A stretch of DNA of 64,000 bases, taken from assembly GCA_964016885.1 (NCBI GenBank), contig OZ024745.1:32302001-32366000 (forward strand), read 5' to 3'. The position numbers and the translations under genes are program-made. Under the pieces are notes generated by a model. The model was not told the DNA's origin. It did no database searches and saw only the letters and a program-made list of their open reading frames with translations. Below, piece after piece: positions 1-63,530 of the stretch (position 1 is the first letter of the stretch; each line of letters starts with the position of its first letter). This DNA is from Eledone cirrhosa (Eukaryota).

Positions 1-449
1 ACATACAAACACTTCTTCACGTGACTTTCCTGCTCTAAAGCGATTAAATATTGATAATTATTTTCAACGGAAAGGAATAATAAACGATTCATTAAAACTG
101 ATGAAAGAGAACAAATAAATTTGTTAAATAAATTTATTCAATAAGTCATCAGTAATTTGTACCCTTTGTCACTCTTTCCTATTTATATTTAATTAATACT
201 GCTTCAAGCAAGCTACAAGATTTTATAAGATAATTTCATTATTTAACTTTTCCATTATCTGGTTGAAATGATTAACATCCCTTAGTTAACATGTCTTCTT
301 CAAATTCAAACTTAAAATCCTTGCTGTCACCTTACAAAATCCTAGCATGAGTCTTGGGGGAATTAACAGATGTTATTGTCAGGAATATGGTACAATAAAA
401 TTCAAAGACCCACTCAAAGCTGCATTGCTAGTAGTAATAATTATTTCTT

Positions 450-9592: not shown

Positions 9593-9895
9593 ATAGTTAT
9601 GTAATAAACAAGATAAGGCAATTATTTCATTTACCAGTGGTTTCTTAAAAGCAAAAAAATGTTGCTTTCAATCATTAGAATGAAAAAATCCTGGTGTATT
9701 TATTGGCGTTGGACGCCAATAAATACACCAGGATTTTTTCATTCTGATGATTGAAAGCAACATTTTTTTGCTTTTAAGAAACCACTGGTAAATGAAATAA
9801 TTGCCTTATCTTGTTTATTATATAACTATTAAGCTCTGTTACCTACATAGAGCACCCTTTTTTCCTGAACTTTTCCGACGGAATTACTTCATTTA
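9593..9895. mobile_element. Fold-back cassette with 117-bp arms carrying a hammerhead ribozyme, between (TA)n tracts (PLE pseudo-LTR-like)
   Basis: 9593-9709 pairs with 9713-9829 (centre 9711) with only about 2 mismatches. It is followed by a unique 3' tail and then (TA)n. Confidence 0.85.
9737..9797 (+). ncRNA. Minimal type I hammerhead ribozyme
   Basis: tttcatt CTGATGA ttgaaagcaa-cattttt-ttgcttttaa GAAA cca-c-tgg TA^ aatgaaa: 7-bp stem I, 10-bp stem II, near-palindromic stem III, predicted cleavage after GUA at 9790. Confidence 0.88.
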
Positions 9896-9896
9896 T

Positions 9897-9932
<36 letters not shown>

Positions 9933-9992
9933 CATCAACATCATATATATATATCATCATCATAAACAACATCATATATGCATCATCAACAA

Positions 9993-10054
<62 letters not shown>

Positions 10055-10245
10055 TCACCAACACCATATTTACATATATATATATTGGTAGAAATCCATA
10101 GATAAAAGATCAAGGAAAACAGTGCTCAATATGTTGGAAGAGAGCTTATTTAGTGTAAAGAAAGTTTCATACACTTAACATGCACTTTTAGGAGAGATAT
10201 TTACTTTAGGGACAACAACTTCCATTTTTCATAGTTTTGTCCACT

Positions 10246-10329
10246 TGCCTGAATGAAGGGCCAGTTTAAAAGTGCCTCTTCCATTATACAGTGGTAGCCA
10301 TGACTGGACCCCGAAACCATTGGTAGCAC
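10246..10329 (+). ncRNA. Degenerate hammerhead ribozyme (1-nt core insertion)
   Basis: tgc CTGAaTGA agggccagt...actggacccc GAAA cca-t-tgg TA gca. Confidence 0.5.
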
Positions 10330-10408
10330 ATACATGTTAATTGCATGAAACTCTATTTATTTATATATAAATATATATAGTTATGTAATAAACAACATAA
10401 GGCAATTA

Positions 10409-10469
10409 TTTCATTTACCAGTGGTTTCTTAAAAGCAAAAAAATGTTGCTTTCAATCATCAGAATGAAA
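10409..10469 (-). ncRNA. Minimal type I hammerhead ribozyme (second copy of the 9737 family)
   Basis: Reverse complement of 9737-9797 with an intact CTGATGA core, inside the repeated cassette 10377-10577. Confidence 0.85.
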
Positions 10470-10573
10470 AAATCCTGGTTTATTTATTGACGTTGGATTT
10501 TAAAAACAAAAATGCAATCTATTACCTACATAGAGCACTCTTTTTTCCTGAACTTTTCCAACGGAATTACTTC

Positions 10574-10613
<40 letters not shown>

Positions 10614-10776
10614 ATATATTTATGTAATAAATCCATAGATGAAAGATCAAGGAAAACAGTGCTCAATATGTTGGAAGAGAGCTTATTTAGTGTAAAGAAA
10701 GTTTCATACACTTAACATGCACTTTTAGGAGAGATATTTAATTTGGATATAAATATTTTATATCCAAATTAAAGAT

Positions 10777-10847
10777 TTCTATCTGATGAATGATTTCAGA
10801 CGCATTTGTTAGAATTGTCTGTCTTCGTGAAACCTTTGGTAATGGAA
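10777..10847 (+). ncRNA. Minimal type I hammerhead ribozyme
   Basis: ttctat CTGATGA atga..cagac...gtctg..tcgt GAAA cc-ttt-gg TA^ atggaa. A fold-back hairpin (ttaatttggatataaa/tttatatccaaattaa, 10738-10772) lies just upstream. Confidence 0.82.
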
Positions 10848-10913
10848 TAATTATATTGTGTTGTTTATTACATAATTAGATAGCACGGAAATATTTAACA
10901 TATATATATATAA

Positions 10914-14108: not shown

Positions 14109-15690
14109 ATACATACATACATACATACATACACACATATATATAAATACATACACACATATATATACATATATATATATATATATACATACATACACAC
14201 ATATATACATACATACACACATATATATATATATATACATACACACATATATATATATATATACATACACACATATATATATATATATACATACACACAT
14301 ATATATATATATATACATACACACATATATATATATATATACATACACACATATATATATATATATATATATACATACACACATATATATATATATATAT
14401 ATATACATACACACATATATATATATATATACATACACACACACATATATATATATATATACATACACACATATATATATATATACATACACATATATAT
14501 ATACATACACACACATATATATATATACATACATACACACATATATATTTATATATACATACACACATATATATTTATATATACATACACACATATATAT
14601 TTATATATACATACACACATATATATATATATACATACACACATATATATATATATACATACACACATATATATATATATACATACACACATATATATAT
14701 ATATACATACACACATATATATATATATATACATACACACATATATATATATATATACATACACACATATATATATATATATACATACACACATATATAT
14801 ATATATATACATACACACATATATATATATATACATACACACATATATATATATATACATACACACATATATATATATACATACACACATATATATATAT
14901 ATACATACACACATATATATATATATATACATACACACATATATATATATATATACATACACACATATATATATATATATACATACACACACATATATAT
15001 ATATACATACACACATATATATATATATACATACACACATATATATATATATATATACATACACACATATATATATATATATACATACACACATATATAT
15101 ATATATATACATACACACACATATATATATATATATACATACACACACATATATATATATATACATACACACACATATATATATATATACATACACACAC
15201 ATATATATATATATACATACACACACATATATATATATATACATACACACACATATATATATATATATACATACACACATATATATATATATACATACAT
15301 ACACATATATATATATATATACACACATATATATATATATATACATACACACATATATATATACATACACACACATATATATATACATACACACACATAT
15401 ATATATATACATACACACACATATATATATATATACATACACACACATATATATATATATACATACACACACATATATATATATATACATACACACACAT
15501 ATATATATATATACATACACACACATATATATATATATACATACACACATATATATATATATATATACATACATACACATATATATATATATACATACAC
15601 ACATATATATATATATACATACACACATATATATATATATACATACACACATATATATATATATACATACACACATATATATATATATAT

Positions 15691-15721
<31 letters not shown>

Positions 15722-15774
15722 CATACATACACATATATATATATATATACATACATACACATATATATATATAT

Positions 15775-15805
<31 letters not shown>

Positions 15806-15924
15806 CATACACATATATATATATATATATATACATACACATATATATATATATATATATATACATACACATATATATATATACATACACATATATATAT
15901 ATATACACACACACATATATATAT

Positions 15925-15971
<47 letters not shown>

Positions 15972-16132
15972 TATATATACACACACACATATACATGCAT
16001 ACACACACATATACATGCATACACACATATATATATATACAAACAGACATATATATACATACAGACATATATATACATACAGACATATATATACATACAG
16101 ACATATATATACATACATATATATATACATAC

Positions 16133-16175
<43 letters not shown>

Positions 16176-16197
16176 CATATATATATACATACACACG
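14109..16197. repeat. About 2-kb compound microsatellite [(TA)n CATACACACA]n
   Basis: Directly visible; it produces several spurious ORFs. Confidence 0.95.
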
Positions 16198-27938: not shown

Positions 27939-28152
27939 AAGTTTAATATAGAAATGGCTTCTACAGAACTAGAACTGTTTCATTCAAAAGAAATCATCAG
28001 GAAAGGGCTTTCCTGGTGACTTCTTTTGAATGAAACAGTTCTAGTCCTGTAGAAGCCATTTCTATAATAAACTTGATGTTTACACTCTAGTATCTACTAA
28101 TGCATTGAGTACCTTACTAACTGTGATAACCCCTGATTGAACCTGGGACTCA
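27939..28152. mobile_element. Fold-back cassette (67-bp arms) carrying a hammerhead, between TA tracts
   Basis: 27939-28005 pairs with 28008-28074; a unique tail then runs into (TA)n. Confidence 0.8.
27958..28005 (-). ncRNA. Minimal type I hammerhead ribozyme
   Basis: Minus strand reads ctttc CTGATGA tttc-tttt-gaat GAAA cag-ttctagtt-ctg TA^ gaag. The plus-strand twin has the mutated core CTGGTGA. Confidence 0.72.
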
Positions 28153-38949: not shown

Positions 38950-39493
38950 AGTGTGAGAGTGTATGCGAGTGTGTGTGTGATGTGTGTGTGTGTCGGTATA
39001 TTTATGTCTGTATGTGTACAAACGTGTATTTACTGTTTGATGTGTGTATGTGTGTAGGTGCGTGTGTGCAAGTCTGTGTTTGTAGACACGCACACATGTA
39101 CTCGCTCGTCTGTTTCGCAATGACAAGTCGTGATGGCAATGGGAAGACCAACGAACAGATGATCAAGAACCAGCAGACCTCGCACGGACTATGTGAGGTT
39201 GTGGCCTTCATGCATTTAACTTAAAGAGGCAACCGAAACATTAACAATATCATTCCCTCTTTGTTCCCTTTGATTCTCTCCACCACCATACTCTTACACA
39301 TCCGCGCACACACACCTACATATACACACATGACTTAAGGCCCCTACGTGGTGTTTCGCTTTGCTAGAGATCATAACTAAAACTCCCTCAAATCAATGCC
39401 TTGTCTTCTAAATGGAAAACACTGTACTCCCAGTTATTTTTTTGTTGGGAGTTGGGGATGTTATTTGATACTGAAAATGTTATTTATACATAC

Positions 39494-39524
<31 letters not shown>

Positions 39525-39586
39525 CATATATATACATATATATATATATACATATATATATATACATATATATACATATATATACC

Positions 39587-39663
<77 letters not shown>

Positions 39664-39691
39664 ACATATACATATATATATATATATATAT

Positions 39692-39722
<31 letters not shown>

Positions 39723-39752
39723 TACATATATATACATATACATATACATACC

Positions 39753-39785
<33 letters not shown>

Positions 39786-39983
39786 ACATATACATATATA
39801 TATATATACATATACATATATAATATATATATATACATATATATATATATACATATATATATACATATATATATATACATATATATATACATATATATAT
39901 ATATACATATATATATACATATATATATATATACATATATATATACATATATATATACATATAATATACATATATATATATAC

Positions 39984-40016
<33 letters not shown>

Positions 40017-40261
40017 CTATTTATATACATATATACATATATATTATACATATATACATATACATATATATATACATATACATACATATATACATATATA
40101 TATATACATATATATATACATATACATATATATATACATATATATATATACATATATACATATATATACATATATATATATACATATATATATATATAGC
40201 ATATATATATATATACATATATATTATACATATATATATATACATATATACATATATATAC

Positions 40262-40332
<71 letters not shown>

Positions 40333-40387
40333 CATATATATATACATATATATATACATATATACATATATATATATACATATATAC

Positions 40388-40418
<31 letters not shown>

Positions 40419-40649
40419 CATATATATATACATATATACATATATATATACATATATACATATATATATATATACATATATACATATACATATATATATA
40501 TACATATATATACATATATATATACATATATATACATATATATATATACATATATATATATATACATATATATATATACATATATATATATACATATATA
40601 CATATATATATATACATATACATATATATATATACATATATATATATAC

Positions 40650-40680
<31 letters not shown>

Positions 40681-41692
40681 ATGTATATATATACATATAT
40701 ATATATATATATGTATATATCTATATGTATATATATGTATATATATGTATATATATATATATGTATATATGTATATATATACATATATATATATACATAT
40801 ATACATATACATGTATATATGTATATATATATGTATATATATATGTATATATGTATATATATATGTATATATATATATATACATATATATATACATATAT
40901 ACATATATACATATATATGTATATAATATATACATATATTATACATATATACATATATATATATACACATATATATATATATATATAACACATATATATA
41001 TATATATACACATATATATATATATACACATATATATATTATATACACATATATATATATACACATATATATATATACACATATATATATACATATATAT
41101 ATATACACATATATATATACACATATATATATATACACATATATATATATACACATATATATATATACACACATATATATATATACATATATATATATAC
41201 ACATATATATATACACATATATATATAACACATATATATATACACATATATATATATACACATATATATATATACACATATATATATACACATATATATA
41301 TACACATATATATATACACATATATATATACACATATATATATACACATATATATATACACATATATATATACATATATATATATACATATATATATATA
41401 CATATATATATATACACATATATATATACACATATATATATACACATATATATATACACATATATATATACATATATATATATACATATATATATATACA
41501 TATATATATATACATATACATATATACATATATATATACATATATATATATACATATATATACATATATATATATACATATACATATACATATACACATA
41601 TATACATATATATACATATATACATATATATATACATATATACATATATATATAGTACATATATATATACATATATACATATATATATATAC

Positions 41693-41723
<31 letters not shown>

Positions 41724-41933
41724 CATATATATATATACATATATATATACATATAATATATATACATATATATATATACATATATATATATACATATATA
41801 TATATACATATATATATATACATATATATATATACATATATATATATACATATATATATATACATATATATATATACATATATATATATACATATATATA
41901 TATACATATATATATATACATATATATATATAG

Positions 41934-41978
<45 letters not shown>

Positions 41979-42058
41979 GTATATATATATGTATATATAT
42001 ATATGTATATATATATATGTATATATATATATGTATATATAATGTATATATATATATG

Positions 42059-42089
<31 letters not shown>

Positions 42090-42118
42090 GTATATATATA
42101 TATGTATATATATATATG

Positions 42119-42149
<31 letters not shown>

Positions 42150-42294
42150 GTATATATATATATGTATATATGTATATATATATATGTATATATATATATG
42201 TATATATGTATATATATATGTATATATGTATATATATGTATATATGTATATATGTATATATGTATATATATATGTATATATATATATGTATATG

Positions 42295-42339
<45 letters not shown>

Positions 42340-42543
42340 GTATATATCATATATATATATGTATATATATATATGTATATATATATATACATATATATAT
42401 ATATACATATATATATATACATATATATATATACATATATATACATATATATATATACATATATATATATACATATATATAAATACATATATATATATAC
42501 ATATATATATATACATATATATATATACATACATATATATACA

Positions 42544-42595
<52 letters not shown>

Positions 42596-42861
42596 CATAT
42601 ATATATACATACATATATATATACATACATATATATATACATACATATATACATACATATATATATACATACATATATATATACATACATATATATATAC
42701 ATACATATATATATACATTATATATATACATACATATATATATACATATATATATACATATATATACATATATACATATATATACATATATATATACATA
42801 TATATACATATATATATATACATATATATATATATACATATATATATATACATATATATAC

Positions 42862-42907
<46 letters not shown>

Positions 42908-42933
42908 ACATATATATATATACATATATATAC

Positions 42934-43022
<89 letters not shown>

Positions 43023-43023
43023 C

Positions 43024-43089
<66 letters not shown>

Positions 43090-43094
43090 GCATA

Positions 43095-43234
<140 letters not shown>

Positions 43235-43235
43235 C

Positions 43236-43272
<37 letters not shown>

Positions 43273-43457
43273 CATATATATACATATATATATATACATA
43301 TATATACATATATATATACATATATATATATACATATATATATATACATATATATATATACATATATATATATATACATATACATATATACATATACATA
43401 TATATATACATATACATATATACATATACATATATATATATACATATATATATATAC

Positions 43458-43520
<63 letters not shown>

Positions 43521-43527
43521 CATATAC

Positions 43528-43574
<47 letters not shown>

Positions 43575-43613
43575 CATATATATATATACATATATATATA
43601 TATACATATACAT

Positions 43614-43830
43614 ATGGTGGCTGCCAACTCGTTTTCGAGTACGGCCACTACTTTATAACCAGGTAGGAGAACCCCTACCGATACGCTGAACGAGTGTGAC
43701 TTTTTAGTCCAGCCAGCAACTTGAAAACTCTGGTACAAAACACTACACTTGTGACAATTATTGACACATAGTGCTGGGCCCATGGTACCATGTAATGACA
43801 AGTGCAGAGAGATCTCCAGATACAAAGCAA
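43614..43830 (-). mobile_element. Second copy of the RTE-like 3' end
   Basis: Colinear with 35323-35509 and sharing the same 3' terminus (..ggcagccaccat). Confidence 0.75.
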
Positions 43831-44078
43831 TGCCTGTGCCGTGAAGCTTTTATAGTGAGCAAAGGCACTGCACAAAGCCAGTCCCACTCTCTAACCAAGA
43901 TGATATTTACCAAAAAGAAGAACAAGTCAACATCATTGGATACCATCAGGGTTGCAGGTGTTATATCAGAGTTTTCCTTCTCCTAGAATTCTGCCTTGAC
44001 AAAGGCTAAGGGTCATCTCTCCCGGACATATACATATACATATATATATATATACATATACATATATATATATATAAC

Positions 44079-44119
<41 letters not shown>

Positions 44120-44162
44120 CACATTTATATATATATATACACATATAATATATAGTATACAC

Positions 44163-44229
<67 letters not shown>

Positions 44230-44281
44230 TATATATATATACACATATATATATATATATACACATATATATATATTATAC

Positions 44282-44314
<33 letters not shown>

Positions 44315-44315
44315 C

Positions 44316-44348
<33 letters not shown>

Positions 44349-44408
44349 CATATATATATACATATATATATATATACATATATATATACATAATATATAT
44401 ACATATAC

Positions 44409-44453
<45 letters not shown>

Positions 44454-44454
44454 C

Positions 44455-44546
<92 letters not shown>

Positions 44547-44554
44547 GTATATAC

Positions 44555-44585
<31 letters not shown>

Positions 44586-44669
44586 CATATACATATATAT
44601 GTATATACATATATATATATATTACATATATATATATATGTATATACATATATATATATATTATACATA

Positions 44670-44704
<35 letters not shown>

Positions 44705-44784
44705 GTATATACATATATATATGTATATACATATATATATATATACATATATATATATATGTATATATATATATATGTATATAC

Positions 44785-44944
<160 letters not shown>

Positions 44945-45341
44945 GTATATATATATATATGTATATATATATATGTATATATATATATGTATATATATAT
45001 ATATGTATATATATATACATATATATATACAACAATAATAATAATAATAAAGTGATGTGATGGTGATGATTAATAGAAAATGCTATTTTCATCATTTCAA
45101 AAAAGCAAAACAATTGATACGTTGGATATGACTATTGGTCGTTAGCATGCTCAACCAGCCGTGACGCTTAAACCAATCAGCTGTAGTAATTCAGTGAAAC
45201 TACACACTGATTGGTCGAAATACAGTTTACAGGGCTTTGCATTCTGGAGCCACTTTTCTCTGTATAAAATGTATAAAAGGTAGGAAATTTACCCATCTCA
45301 TTACAGTTGAAAATTGCAAACTCGACTGTCACCACATATCA

Positions 45342-45380
45342 TGAACCTGAAGATTGCGAAAGCATGAAAGTACTTGTTCA
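45342..45380 (+). ncRNA. Minimal type I hammerhead ribozyme
   Basis: tgaac CTGAAGA ttgc-gaaa-gcat GAAA gtac TT^ gttca: GAAA tetraloop on stem II and palindromic AGTACT stem III. Confidence 0.78.
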
Positions 45381-45539
45381 ATTAACACTTAGAATTTAAT
45401 ATTCTATCATACTATTTCATTATAATACCATTATATATATTTTAAAGGATTGTAAATAAAACGAGTAAATCAGACAAAGTTGGAATTCCTCTTATTAATA
45501 CATATATATATATATACATATATATATATATGTATATAC

Positions 45540-45570
<31 letters not shown>

Positions 45571-45625
45571 CATATACATATATATATATATACATATATA
45601 TACATATATATATATATGTATATAC

Positions 45626-45656
<31 letters not shown>

Positions 45657-47122
45657 CATATATATATATATGTATATACATATATATATATATACATACA
45701 TATATATATATACATACATACATATATATACATTATATATATATATACATACATATAATATATACATATATATATATACATACATATATATATACAGATA
45801 TATATATACATACATATATATATACATATATATATATACATACATATATATACATTACATACATATATCCATACATATATACATACATATATACATACAT
45901 ATATATATACATATATATATACATACATACATATATATATACATATATATATATATACATACATACATACATATATATATATATACATACATACATACAT
46001 ATATACATATATATATATATACATACATACAAATATATATACATACATACATATATATATACATACATATATATATATACTACATATATTATATACATAC
46101 ATACTATATATATATACATACATATATATATATACATACATATATATATATACATACATACATATATAACATACATACATATATATATACATACATATAT
46201 TAAACATACATATATATATATATATACATACATATATATATATATATATACATACATATATATATATATATACATACATACATATATATATATACATACA
46301 TACATATATACATATATATATATACATACATACATATATATATACATATATATATACATATATATATATACATACATACATATATATATACATATATATA
46401 TATATATACATACATACATATATATATACATATATATATATATACATACATACACATATACATATATATATATACATACACATATACATATATATATATA
46501 TACATACATACACACATATATATATACATATATATATACATACACATATACATATATATATATATATACATACATACACACATATATATATACATATATA
46601 TATACATATATATATATACATACATACATATATATACATATACATATATATATACATACATATATACATATACATATATATATATACATATATATATACA
46701 TATATATATATACATATATATATATACATATATATATATACATATATATATATACATATATATAGTATACATATAATATATACATATATATATATACATA
46801 TATATACTACATATATATATATACATATATATATATACATATACATATATATATATACATATACATATATACATATACATATATATATATACATATATAT
46901 ATATACATATATATATATACATATACATATATATATATACATATATATATATACATATATATATACATATATATATACATATATATATATACATATATAT
47001 ATACATATATATATACATATACATATATACATATATATATACATATATATATATACATATATATATACACATATATATATACATATATATATACATATAT
47101 ATATACATATATATATACATAC

Positions 47123-47159
<37 letters not shown>

Positions 47160-47243
47160 CATAAAAACAAATAACGAAACGAAATTAAATTTCGTTTCGT
47201 TTGTAACTCACTTTTGTATGACTGACGCTTAAACAATTAGGTA

Positions 47244-47288
47244 AATATTGCTGATGAGTTGTAACAACAACGAAACTAGTTCAATATT
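47244..47288 (+). ncRNA. Minimal type I hammerhead ribozyme
   Basis: aatattg CTGATGA gttgt-aaca-acaac GAAA ctag TT^ caatatt: 7-bp stem I, 5-bp stem II, palindromic ACTAGT stem III. An upstream hairpin aacgaaacgaaat/atttcgtttcgtt lies at 47173-47201. Confidence 0.85.
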
Positions 47289-47613
47289 CCTTGTCTGGCT
47301 TTCTGGAGAATAGAGGAATGGTGTTTCCTCAAAAACCAGTATGACTCTAAAAAACCGGTTTGTCTGTGTGTTTACATACAGAATAGCTGGATACTCACAG
47401 TAAAGTAACCAGTGAAAGACTTGGTACATCTACATATGTATACGTGTGTGTATTCATATGCATACTAGTATTTCAGTATACATATATGGATGTACATTTT
47501 TAACTTAATTATATATACATACATATATATATACATATATATATACATACATATATACATATATATATATATACATACATATATACATATATATACATAC
47601 ATATATACATACA

Positions 47614-47645
<32 letters not shown>

Positions 47646-48052
47646 CATACACATATATATATATACATACATATATATATATATACATACATATATATAT
47701 ATATACATACATATATATATATATACATACATATATATATATATACATACATATATATATATATACATACATATATATATATACATACATATATACATAT
47801 ACATACATATATATATACATACATATATATATATACATACATATATACATATATATATATACATACATATATATATACATACATATATATATATACATAC
47901 ATATATACATATATATATATACATACATATATACATATATATATATACATACATATATACATATATATATATACATACATATATATATACATATATATAT
48001 ATACATACATATATACATATATATATATACATACATATATACATATATATAT

Positions 48053-48083
<31 letters not shown>

Positions 48084-48176
48084 CATACTATAATATATAT
48101 ATATACATACATAATACAATATATATAACATACATACATATATAATATATATATACATACATATATATATATATAT

Positions 48177-48207
<31 letters not shown>

Positions 48208-48537
48208 CATACATATATATATATATATATACATACATATATATATATATACATACATACATACATACATATATATATACATACATACATACATACATAT
48301 ATATATACATACATACATACATATATATATACATACATACATACATACATATATATATACATACATACATACATATATATATACATACATACATATATAT
48401 ATACATACATACATACATACATATATATATACATACATACATACATATATATATACATACATACATATATATATATATACATACATATATATATATATAT
48501 ACATACATACATATATATATACATACACACATATATA

Positions 48538-48577
<40 letters not shown>

Positions 48578-48702
48578 CATACATATATATATATATACAT
48601 ACATACATATATACATACATATATATATATATACATACATACATATATACATACATATATATATATATACATACATACATATATACATACATATATATAT
48701 AC

Positions 48703-48751
<49 letters not shown>

Positions 48752-48779
48752 CATACATATATATATATATATACATACA

Positions 48780-48811
<32 letters not shown>

Positions 48812-48836
48812 CATACATATATATATATACATACAT

Positions 48837-48910
<74 letters not shown>

Positions 48911-48916
48911 CAAATA

Positions 48917-48961
<45 letters not shown>

Positions 48962-48968
48962 ATACATA

Positions 48969-49000
<32 letters not shown>

Positions 49001-49116
49001 CATACATATATATATATACATACATATATATATATACATACATATATATATATACATACATATATATATATACATACATATATATATATACATACATATA
49101 TATATATACATACATA

Positions 49117-49172
<56 letters not shown>

Positions 49173-50947
49173 CATACATATATATATATACATACATATA
49201 TATATATATATATACATACATACATACATACATATATATATATACATACATACATATATATACATATATACATATACATATATATATATATATATATATA
49301 CATACATACATATATACATACATACATACATATATATATACATACATACATATATATATATACATACATACATATATTTATATATATACATACATACATA
49401 CATATACATACATACATACATATACATACATACATATATAACTTTGAATAACTTTGAAATGTTTTGGCCAGTATTGGCCCAGGCCATGTCTAACTTAATA
49501 GCACCACCTGGCGAAGTCTTTCAATTCAGGATTTGGGCACCATGGCCCATTCGAGAAGAGAATTACTGTTTGCGGAGACATATCCGGGTGTGGGTGGTTT
49601 GTCCGGGATTACTTGGAGGAATACATTCATATACATACATACATATATATATGTATGTATATGTATTTATATACATATACATCCATATATATATATATAT
49701 ACATACATATATATATATACATATACATCCATATATATATATACTATACATCATACATCATATATATACATATACATATATATATATACATCCATATACA
49801 TACATATATATATATACATCCATATACATACATATATATATATACATCATTATACATACATATATATATATACATATACATACATATATATATATACATA
49901 TACATACATATATATATATACATATACATACATATATATATATACATATACATACATATATATATATACATATACATACATATATAATATACATATACAT
50001 ACATATATATATATACATATACATACATATATATATATACATATACATACATATATATATATACATATACATACATATATATATATACATATACATACAT
50101 ATATATATATACATATACATACTATATATATATACATATACATACATATATATATAATATACATATACATACATATATATATATATACATATACATACAT
50201 ATATATATATATACATATACATCCATATATATAATATATACATATACATATACATAATATATATATATATACATATACATACATATATATATATATACAT
50301 ATACATCCATATATAATATATACATATACATCCATATATATATATATACATATACATCCATATATATATATAACATATACATACATATATACTATATATA
50401 CATATACATACATATATATATATATACATATACATATATATACATATATATATATACATATACTATACATAATATATATATATACATATACATCCATATA
50501 TATATATATACATATACATCATATATATTATATACATATACATCATATATATATATATACTTATACTCGATACTATAATATATACATATACATCCATATA
50601 TATATATAATATCATCCATATATCTATAATACATATACATACATATATATATATAATACATGATACATACGCATATATATATATATACTATACAATATAT
50701 ATGCATATATATATATACATAAATATACATATAATAATATACATATACATATATATAATACATATACATATATATATACAATATACTATATATATACATA
50801 TACATATAACTTTGAATAACTTGACAAAATGTTTGGCCAGTATTGGCCCAGGCATGTCCTAACTTAATAGCACCACCTGGCGAGTCTTTCAATTCAGGAT
50901 TTGGGCACACATGGGCCCATTTCGAGAAGAGAATTACTGTTTTGCGG

Positions 50948-62468: not shown

Positions 62469-62830
62469 GTGCAGGGTGTGGTGGGGGTAAGTATATATAC
62501 TGGACATGTGTATTGTTATTATTAGCTCATACATTTTTATCACCAGTACCAGACTAAGAAAGAAATTAAAAACATGATCATACTAACATAGAGTCAATAG
62601 AAAATCAGTGTAGAAAAAACCAAAGCACAAGTATATTGAAATAAATTATTGGCAGGGCTTAAACCACAAAAGCCCCTTAGTGCTAGAAGGCTTGTGGTTT
62701 GAGTTTAAATACTGTCAAAGTTTACGTTATCTTTCACTCTTCTGAGATTGATAAATAATATGGTTGGTGTAACAGCCCAATAATTTAAACCAGTAAAAGA
62801 ATAAAAGAATATAGCCATGTAGTGGAATAA

Positions 62831-63530
62831 AACATAGAGAACATAGCTCAAGTTGTTAGTGACAAAACATAGAGAACATAGCTCAAGTTGTTAGTGACAA
62901 AACAGAGAACATAGCTCAAGTTGTTAGTGACAAAACATAGAGAACATAGCTCAAGTTGTTAGTGACAAAACAGAGAGAACATAGCTCAAGTTGTTAGTGA
63001 CAAAACATAGAGAACATAGCTCAAGTTGTTAGTGACAAAACATAGAGAACATAGCTCAAGTTGTTAGTGACAAAACAGAGAACATAGCTCAAGTTGTTAG
63101 TGACAAAACATAGAGAACATAGCTCAAGTTGTTAGTGACAAAACAGAGAATATAGCTCAAGTTGTTAGTGACAAAACATAGAGAACATAGCTCAAGTTGT
63201 TAGTGACAAAACATAGAGAATATAGCTCAAGTTGTTAGTGACAAAACATAGAGAACATAGCTCAAGTTGTTAGTGACAAAACATAGAGAATATAGCTCAA
63301 GTTGTTAGTGACAAAACATAGAGAACATAGCTCAAGTTGTTAGTGACAAAACAGAGAACATAGCTCAAGTTGTTAGTGACAAAACATAGAGAACATAGCT
63401 CAAGTTGTTAGTGACAAAACATAGAATATAGCTCAAGTTGTTAGTGACAAAACATAGAGAACATAGCTCAAGTTGTTAGTGACAAAACATAGAGAACATA
63501 GCTCAAGTTGTTAGTGACAAAACATAAGAA
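62831..63530. repeat. 35-bp minisatellite, about 20 copies (some 33-bp variants)
   Basis: Unit aacatagagaacatagctcaagttgttagtgacaa. Confidence 0.95.

What the first reader, a model, noticed from the sequence alone, without database searches (positions are those of the whole stretch)
9593..10900. 1.3-kb hotspot with four or five hammerheads from three families and a 117-bp near-perfect hairpin
The region holds a fold-back cassette (hammerhead on + at 9737, core-mutated CTAATGA twin on -), a re-duplicated cassette (hammerhead on - at 10409), a degenerate motif at 10246 and a different hammerhead at 10777. A 110-bp segment (about 10092-10203) is repeated at about 10629-10740. TA tracts separate the pieces. 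This looks like repeated insertion into the same TA tract, or a tandem PLE-terminus array able to form the dimers that minimal hammerheads typically need.
Basis: partly seen in the sequence, partly recalled or inferred. Interest (0 to 1): 0.75.

Follow-up and report, generated by a model that had tools for sequence, protein, structure and literature searches.

The report
Pile-up of Penelope retrotransposon ends
This 1.3-kb stretch is a pile of four truncated, mirror-image ends of abundant Penelope-like jumping genes that likely landed one after another in the same TA-rich spot, and its hammerhead motifs are likely inert passengers rather than a working ribozyme array.

Summary
In detail: three canonical type I hammerhead motifs (9737+, 10409-, 10777+), a G5A twin, an 8-nt-core motif at 10246, a 117-bp hairpin and a 116-bp duplication. 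All motifs belong to dispersed repeat families; family A has at least 1,455 exact copies and elsewhere sits directly before an ORF with the motifs of Hydra-clade Penelope-like elements (PLEs). The locus resolves into four head-to-head insertions (A1, C, A2, D). Each pairs one arm that ends at a fixed long ('tailed') site with one that ends about 65 nt earlier, as 20 of 21 sampled family-A pairs do. A2 is mostly a separate insertion, not a re-duplication; the 116-bp repeat is a local copy that likely replaced most of D's left arm. The dimer-array idea is not supported: the families' stem I strands do not cross-pair, and predicted folding traps four of five motifs. The architecture is published (Cervera 2014, Craig 2021, Frangieh 2024), and this scan noted the one-long-one-short rule before on other DNA. 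Read data could not test the junctions. Ordinary, with a modest mechanistic hint.

The parts
9593..9711 (-). Insertion A1, short arm: family-A PLE pseudo-LTR from -33 to +86 (0 = C3 of the core), ending at the fixed short site; hammerhead core carries G5A (position 9676)
9713..9893 (+). Insertion A1, long arm: -31 to about +150, intact hammerhead motif 9737-9797 (predicted cut after 9790) plus the ~65-nt tail 9830-9893
9830..9893 (+). Family-A tail between the two fixed ends; holds a predicted 7-bp hairpin also predicted in family D and, weaker, in family C
9894..10085 (.). (TA)n / (CAT,CAA)n tract between A1 and C; likely target DNA
10086..10182 (-). Insertion C, long (tailed) arm, 5'-truncated to 97 nt
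10184..10362 (+). Insertion C, short arm; hammerhead motif 10246-10328 with an 8-nt CUGAAUGA core (A6a insertion), predicted cut after 10325; right end approximate
   Evidence: variant described in PMC3088659
10377..10522 (-). Insertion A2, short arm: family A from -60 to +86, intact hammerhead motif 10409-10469 (predicted cut after 10416)
10518..10576 (+). Insertion A2, long arm reduced to the tail (+91 to +150); shares one private change (124 G>A) with the A1 tail
10577..10619 (.). (TA)n tract between A2 and D
10620..10631 (-). 12 nt matching the short-arm end of family D (also of family A); likely the surviving outer end of D's left arm
10629..10744 (+). Local copy of 10092-10207, including C's own inversion junction; likely a templated insertion that replaced the inside of D's left arm
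10737..10756 (-). Inner stub of D's inverted arm
10753..10897 (+). Insertion D, long arm: hammerhead motif 10777-10847 (predicted cut after 10841), tail with an internal deletion of about 42 nt at 10884

Best explanation
The region is four 5'-truncated, head-to-head insertions of Penelope-like element (PLE) ends from three abundant families, likely inserted at different times into one TA-rich tract and likely inert since. Shown: each piece matches a dispersed family; family A is the pseudo-LTR of an element whose ORF has the Hydra-clade motifs; arms end at two fixed sites about 65 nt apart, one of each per insertion. Inferred mechanism: the element's GIY-YIG nuclease nicks both strands of a (TA)n target, its reverse transcriptase starts one cDNA at the outer (tail) site and one at the inner site, both stop early, and their truncated ends are joined, which leaves a mirror-image stub with the hammerhead motifs pointing outward. 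Each insertion leaves TA tracts on both sides, so the spot stays a target. A later DNA-level template switch likely copied 10092-10207 into D's left arm and removed that palindrome. The hammerhead motifs are carried along from the parent elements; at this locus they are predicted to be masked by the long inverted repeats.
For: Family A: 1,455 exact 26-mer matches, control 0; C and D: 1,388 and 571 first-look candidates, 40 scored each. Family-A pLTR (96.5% to A1) lies directly before an ORF start 263 nt after C3 in L193 and in L081/82; that ORF region is 88-97% identical in the other 149 of 150 scored places, and a sister subfamily has open 714-aa frames with RWK, DKT, YRDD, CxCX5C, CxxC and CxH motifs, the Hydra signature (PMC8557442 section 11). 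In 60 regions covering 76 of the first 100 listed pattern matches, 83 of 89 arm hits end at +78..90 or >=+146, followed by TA or CA runs; head-to-head pairs are short+long in 20 of 21, long+long in 1 (binomial p 1e-5). Family C, sampled on its tail: 11 of 12 inverted partners end at the short site, none at the long site. All four window insertions fit the rule. The junction inside the 116-bp repeat was spanned by no other fetched locus, so the repeat is a local copy. Published: dual minimal hammerheads 100-700 bp apart on opposite strands (PMC4209133); inverted 5'-truncated copy, one-sided tail, (TA)n target (PMC8557442); two RT start sites bound the tail, both strands cut and extended, hammerhead dispensable in vitro (PMC11167929).
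Against: No fetched copy of family C or D was seen to run straight into an ORF; the link is indirect (Hydra-type ORF pieces inverted at the 5' junction of 2 C loci; a pLTR 78% like D before a sister ORF). A2's tail shares a private change with A1's tail (0 of 65 other arms), so part of A2 may be a local copy. Four insertions in 1.3 kb is well above a uniform rate (about 0.03 to 3 such clusters expected per genome), and TA targeting as the cause is inferred, with only weak clustering seen around other copies. Family D cores show a trend to conservation (1 of 164 against 67 of 2,118 changes, p 0.09). Motif C is only 6 kcal/mol from its hammerhead fold. No read spanned the locus-specific junctions.
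Confidence: 0.88

Rival explanations
1. A functional array in which neighbouring minimal hammerheads pair as dimers and cut a read-through transcript.
For: Stem III is short and palindromic in all motifs, as in dimer-type PLE hammerheads (PMC4209133); A2 and the A1 short arm are the same family on the same strand, so one homodimer is geometrically possible.
Against: Cross-family stem I gives 0-1 pairs; hammerhead fold costs 22-81 kcal/mol in context for four of five motifs; the one possible homodimer partner has a G5A core and lies in the 117-bp hairpin; family-A cores change at the background rate, 11 of 462 against 133 of 4,400.
Confidence: 0.04
2. Fewer true insertions: A2, or at least its tail with the following TA tract and the 116-bp repeat, arose in one local block duplication of 9835-10207.
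For: Tail, TA tract and B occur in the same order twice; the two tails share the private change 124 G>A.
Against: A2's short arm has -60..-33 sequence absent from A1, a different allele at -28 and lacks A1's private 66 G>C; the second block lacks C's long end and has a short-arm end in its place, so at least one more switch is needed.
Confidence: 0.3
3. The inverted arms form by self-priming (fold-back of the cDNA or use of an antisense template) rather than by two primers, as proposed for rotifer Penelopes.
For: Arm 5' ends cluster near short palindromes at about -44, -62 and -16 in family A; self-priming was proposed from such palindromes (PMC3846280).
Against: It does not by itself give one short and one long end in 20 of 21 pairs, nor arms that do not overlap, as in A2 (-60..+86 and +91..+150) and L131.
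Confidence: 0.2
4. The duplications are assembly errors.
For: No public record laid on the locus spanned its private junctions, which leaves the question open.
Against: The repeated copies differ (2 of 116 and 2 of 117 positions), have distinct junctions, and the same fold-back architecture recurs at many unlinked loci.
Confidence: 0.04

Closest known systems
Hydra clade of C-terminal EN+ Penelope-like elements, nearest Hydra-1_Obim of Octopus bimaculoides (Craig et al. 2021, PMC8557442; section 11, passages and supplement parts read)
   Same: RWK, DKT, CxCX5C linker, CxxC and CxH around the nuclease end, C-terminal GIY-YIG, (TA)n target, type I hammerhead with a palindromic ACCA-n-TGGT stem III; the protein start and RT blocks resemble Hydra-1_Obim by eye.
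   Different: Unit about 4.1 kb between pLTRs against 'generally <3 kb'; a second hammerhead motif in the 3' UTR; far higher copy number (21,828 first-look ORF candidates) than the few copies noted for Hydra-1_Obim; the window holds only ORF-less ends.
Complex PLE insertions: inverted 5'-truncated pLTR with a one-sided tail (PMC8557442 Fig. 2 legend; PMC3846280 passages)
   Same: Head-to-head arms, tail on one arm, microsatellite target that hides target-site duplications.
   Different: Tail about 64-70 nt instead of 30-40; four such stubs from three families within 1.3 kb.
Minimal type I hammerheads of metazoan PLEs (Cervera and de la Pena 2014, PMC4209133; parts 1-2 of 4 read)
   Same: Short palindromic helix III, long helix II, dual motifs 100-700 bp apart on opposite strands from truncated PLEs.
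   Different: Family C has the A6a core insertion as its majority state; that variant was described as low-activity in PMC3088659 (passages read).
Poseidon element of Anolis carolinensis in vitro (Frangieh et al. 2024, PMC11167929; parts 1-2 of 4 read)
   Same: Two fixed 3' ends that bound the tail; AT-rich target; both strands cut and extended.
   Different: There the start sites lie 111-118 nt inside the ORF and no strand bias was seen; here they lie in the 5' UTR, about 40 and 104 nt after the hammerhead cut site.
Metazoan non-LTR retrozymes (Li, Clavereau and Pollet 2026, 10.64898/2026.07.22.740005; part 1 of 5 read)
   Same: Non-coding repeats with type I hammerheads related to PLE pLTRs.
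   Different: Retrozymes are head-to-tail tandem arrays; this locus has no tandem unit.

Membership tests
Type I hammerhead ribozyme (A1 long, A2, D) | CUGANGA / GAAA / UH core with stems I, II, III | tested here: met
   isolated motifs within 0.9-2.0 kcal/mol of the hammerhead fold
Type I hammerhead ribozyme (A1 short, C) | Canonical core letters | tested here: not met
   A1 short has G5A; C has an extra A after A6, a known low-activity variant
Type I hammerhead ribozyme | Self-cleavage at the NUH site | not testable with these tools
   needs an in vitro assay
Type I hammerhead ribozyme | Match to an Rfam hammerhead model at gathering score | tested here: not met
   0 matches in the window
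EN+ Penelope-like element (family A) | pLTR with hammerhead flanking one ORF with RT and C-terminal GIY-YIG | tested here: met
   L193, L081/82, L205-L213; nuclease motifs read by eye; Pfam on six broken fragments gave no relevant hit
EN+ Penelope-like element (families A, C, D) | 5' truncation, inverted copy and one-sided tail | tested here: met
EN+ Penelope-like element (families C, D) | Own ORF attached to the pLTR | tested here: inconclusive
   indirect only:
Hydra clade (family A) | RWK motif, DKT for DKG, CxCX5C linker, CxxC and CxH in the nuclease | tested here: met
   714-aa frames in L204-L206 read by eye against the definition
Hydra clade (family A) | Insertion into (TA)n | tested here: met
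   arm ends are followed by TA or CA runs
Hydra clade (family A) | Generally shorter than 3 kb | tested here: not met
   about 4.1 kb from pLTR to pLTR in L205, with a long microsatellite-rich 3' UTR; a tendency, not a strict criterion, in the paper
Hydra clade (family A) | Placement in the Hydra branch of an RT tree | not tested
   no tree built; resemblance to Hydra-1_Obim seen by eye in the supplement
Non-LTR retrozyme | Head-to-tail tandem units, each with a hammerhead | tested here: not met
   no such array at 9593-10900

The most novel reading that the evidence does not exclude
PLE integration is a programmed twin priming on one RNA: the two nicked target strands start cDNA at the two fixed sites on either side of the tail, so every inverted insertion must carry one long and one short end. 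This locus shows the limiting case: in A2 the long arm stops at +91, five bases past the short arm's start at +86, as expected if one polymerase ran into the other. That would explain the long-open origin of PLE inverted ends and one-sided tails, and a young family with many open 714-aa frames makes it testable.
Probability: 0.45. Interest if true: 0.5.

Novelty: new member of a known kind. Interest (0 to 1): 0.2.

Why it matters
As a locus it is ordinary transposon debris and explains away an apparent ribozyme array. Its value is indirect: it shows that a Hydra-clade PLE, a group described from few families, has expanded hugely in this genome and still has open reading frames, and the near-strict one-long-one-short rule constrains how PLEs integrate, a question that Craig et al. 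and Frangieh et al. leave open. It also warns that hammerhead clusters in such genomes need a copy-number and orientation check before a function is proposed.

Tried and rejected
Rfam scan of the window: 0 matches. Pfam on six broken ORF fragments of L081: no relevant family. Hydra ORF in the window or in two 10-kb stretches beside it: no tblastn hit. Naiad origin, my first guess from the RT motif, was rejected because the nuclease is C-terminal and canonical hammerheads are present. Target-site-duplication reading of the 116-bp repeat was rejected because the repeat is cut out of the middle of insertion C. Literature: a search for Penelope + twin priming + inverted + tail gave one unrelated review in the listing; hammerhead + CUGAAUGA gave none; hammerhead + G5A gave nothing useful, so the effect of G5A rests on my own knowledge of the invariant core. 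The Lunse et al. paper on dimeric PLE hammerhead variants is not held and may bear on the novelty of family C's core. The O. vulgaris repeat paper (PMC13282606, passages) does not mention Hydra or hammerheads.

Full report
Observation. The window is C5:32,302,001-32,366,000 of a 3.0-Gb assembly, rich in microsatellites; an octopus-type host is my inference from that and from the resemblance of its PLE to Hydra-1_Obim. A pattern-and-stem scan recovered canonical type I hammerhead motifs at 9737 (+), 10409 (-) and 10777 (+) with cut sites after 9790, 10416 and 10841, and the CTAATGA twin at 9625-9685 (-). The hairpin arms are 117 nt with two differences, one of them the core change at 9676, and the direct repeat is 116 nt with two differences. 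The motif at 10246 has an 8-nt core. In 40 background stretches of 10 kb the scan found 35 motifs, 19 in one tandem array and 16 elsewhere, and none in three shuffles. Rfam found nothing.

Every piece is a dispersed repeat. The A cassette had 1,484 first-look candidates, and 18 of 60 listed matches are inverted arms of about 115 nt beside a full copy; a 26-nt word from it occurs 1,455 times, control 0. Families C and D had 1,388 and 571 candidates. Hydra-type ORF is absent from the window and from two 10-kb stretches beside it.

Parent element. In L081/82 and L193 the family-A sequence runs past its usual end into an ORF that starts 263 nt after C3. A piece of that ORF had 21,828 first-look candidates; the other 149 of 150 scored places are 88-97% identical. 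A sister subfamily, whose pLTR is 87% like A1, has open 714-aa frames between pLTRs about 4.1 kb apart. By eye these carry RWK, DKT, YRDD, a CxCX5C linker, a C-terminal GIY-YIG region and CxxC and CxH motifs, which is the Hydra-clade definition (PMC8557442 section 11). The supplement lists Hydra-1_Obim from Octopus bimaculoides, (TA)n target, with a similar protein and hammerhead. A protein search gave 1,339 relatives, most of the 120 listed at 42-47% identity and almost all unnamed. For C and D the ORF link is indirect.

Two fixed ends. To avoid picking on the long end, I sampled by the 26-nt word, which both arm types hold: 60 regions covering 76 of the first 100 listed places, namely all 15 opposite-strand pairs within 7 kb, one same-strand pair and the first 44 singles. 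Of 89 arm hits, 44 end at +78..90, 39 at +146 or beyond, 6 elsewhere. Head-to-head pairs were short+long in 20, long+long in 1, short+short in 0 (p about 1e-5). Three regions were set aside: L148 (one arm ends at +64), L150 (partner belongs to the sister subfamily) and L101 (second arm missed by the script; by eye a long arm with a deletion). In 20 family-C loci chosen by the tail, 12 had an inverted partner; 11 end at the short site, 1 earlier, none at the long site. Paired arms share rare variants more than shuffled partners do (17 of 137; shuffled mean 2.3, maximum 7 in 1,000; 37 pairs), which fits one source per insertion but also later conversion between arms.

Anatomy of the locus. A1: short arm 9593-9711 (-), long arm 9713-9893 (+). 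C: long arm 10086-10182 (-), short arm 10184 to about 10362 (+). A2: short arm 10377-10522 (-), tail-only long arm 10518-10576 (+). D: long arm 10753-10897 (+) with about 42 nt deleted from the tail, an inverted stub at 10737-10756, and 12 nt of short-arm end at 10620-10631. A2's short arm holds family sequence from -60 to -33 that A1 lacks, differs at -28 and lacks A1's private change at +66, so it is a separate insertion; against this, its tail shares the private change at +124 with A1's tail (0 of 65 other arms), so the tail may have been copied or converted locally. The 116-bp repeat includes C's own inversion junction, which no other fetched locus spans; it lies between the two remnants of D's left arm, with short matches at both joints. 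The simplest reading is a DNA-level template switch that removed D's palindrome (inference).

Is it a hotspot? A-, C- or D-like ends were found in 5 of the 40 background stretches. At that rate, or at the rate for all hammerhead families, about 0.03 to 3 clusters of four in 1.3 kb are expected per genome. So the local excess is real. Flanks of other copies had 0.035-0.086 further motifs per kb against about 0.04 in the background, a weak clustering at most. TA targeting is the likely cause, but that is inferred.

Function of the motifs here. Alone, each motif lies within 0.4-4.2 kcal/mol of the hammerhead fold. In the whole-locus transcript, forcing that fold costs 80.8 (A1 long), 27.0 (D), 21.9 (A2), 33.6 (A1 short) and 6.3 (C) kcal/mol, and stem I strands of different families give 0-1 contiguous pairs. 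Family-A cores change at the background rate (11 of 462 against 133 of 4,400, p 0.56); C cores no less (23 of 203 against 247 of 3,367, p 0.054); D shows a trend to conservation (1 of 164 against 67 of 2,118, p 0.09) in a sample picked by likeness to the window copy. C's 8-nt core is the family majority (11 of 22 arms; every position majority) and matches the A6a insertion reported as low in activity (PMC3088659). Cleavage was not tested, and no RNA run was listed.

Comparison with print. Dual minimal hammerheads on opposite strands from truncated PLEs were described in 2014 (PMC4209133). Inverted 5'-truncated copies, a tail at one end and (TA)n targets are in PMC8557442 and PMC3846280, the latter proposing self-priming. 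In vitro, a Poseidon protein cuts and extends both strands, starts at two sites that bound the tail and does not need the hammerhead (PMC11167929). I did not find the two-primer, one-RNA explanation in one targeted search, but earlier notes of this scan reached it on other DNA; my own counts (note) came before I saw them.

Verdict. A real but ordinary pile-up of Hydra-type PLE ends with one secondary local duplication; new families of a known kind. Interest 0.2. The boldest reading left open is programmed twin priming (probability 0.45, interest 0.5).

Noticed in passing
window:20623-20703 (+), 27958-28004 (-), 47244-47290 (+): Three more type I hammerhead motifs of other families in the window; relatives of all three occur in the background stretches.
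   Followed up: partly
L189 (G000:C22:12000001-12010000): Tandem array of about 468-bp units, each with a hammerhead motif (19 in 10 kb): retrozyme-like; the scan seems to have noted this family before.
   Followed up: no
L204 (G000:C1:330095500-330105499): Two identical open 714-aa Hydra-type frames in opposite orientation within 8 kb: a very young inverted insertion of the autonomous sister subfamily.
   Followed up: partly
L205:4022-4132 and the same place in L206-L213: The autonomous elements carry a second, diverged hammerhead motif in the 3' UTR about 400-450 nt after the stop codon, besides the one in the pLTR.
   Followed up: partly
window:9833-9853; L057; Hydra-2_Amil 3' end in the Craig supplement: A small GCUC...GAGC hairpin in the tail is shared by families A, C and D and seems present in a coral Hydra element; noted before by this scan.
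   Followed up: partly
family A loci L002-L030, L092-L151: 5' ends of the arms in short fold-back insertions cluster near -44, -62 and -16 from C3, next to short palindromes.
   Followed up: no
window:11728-13632, 14113-16196, 39481-50808, 62829-63530: Long tandem arrays: 56-bp unit x34 (G-rich, 96%), 26-bp unit x81, an 11-kb TA/CA-rich array, 35-bp unit x20.
   Followed up: no
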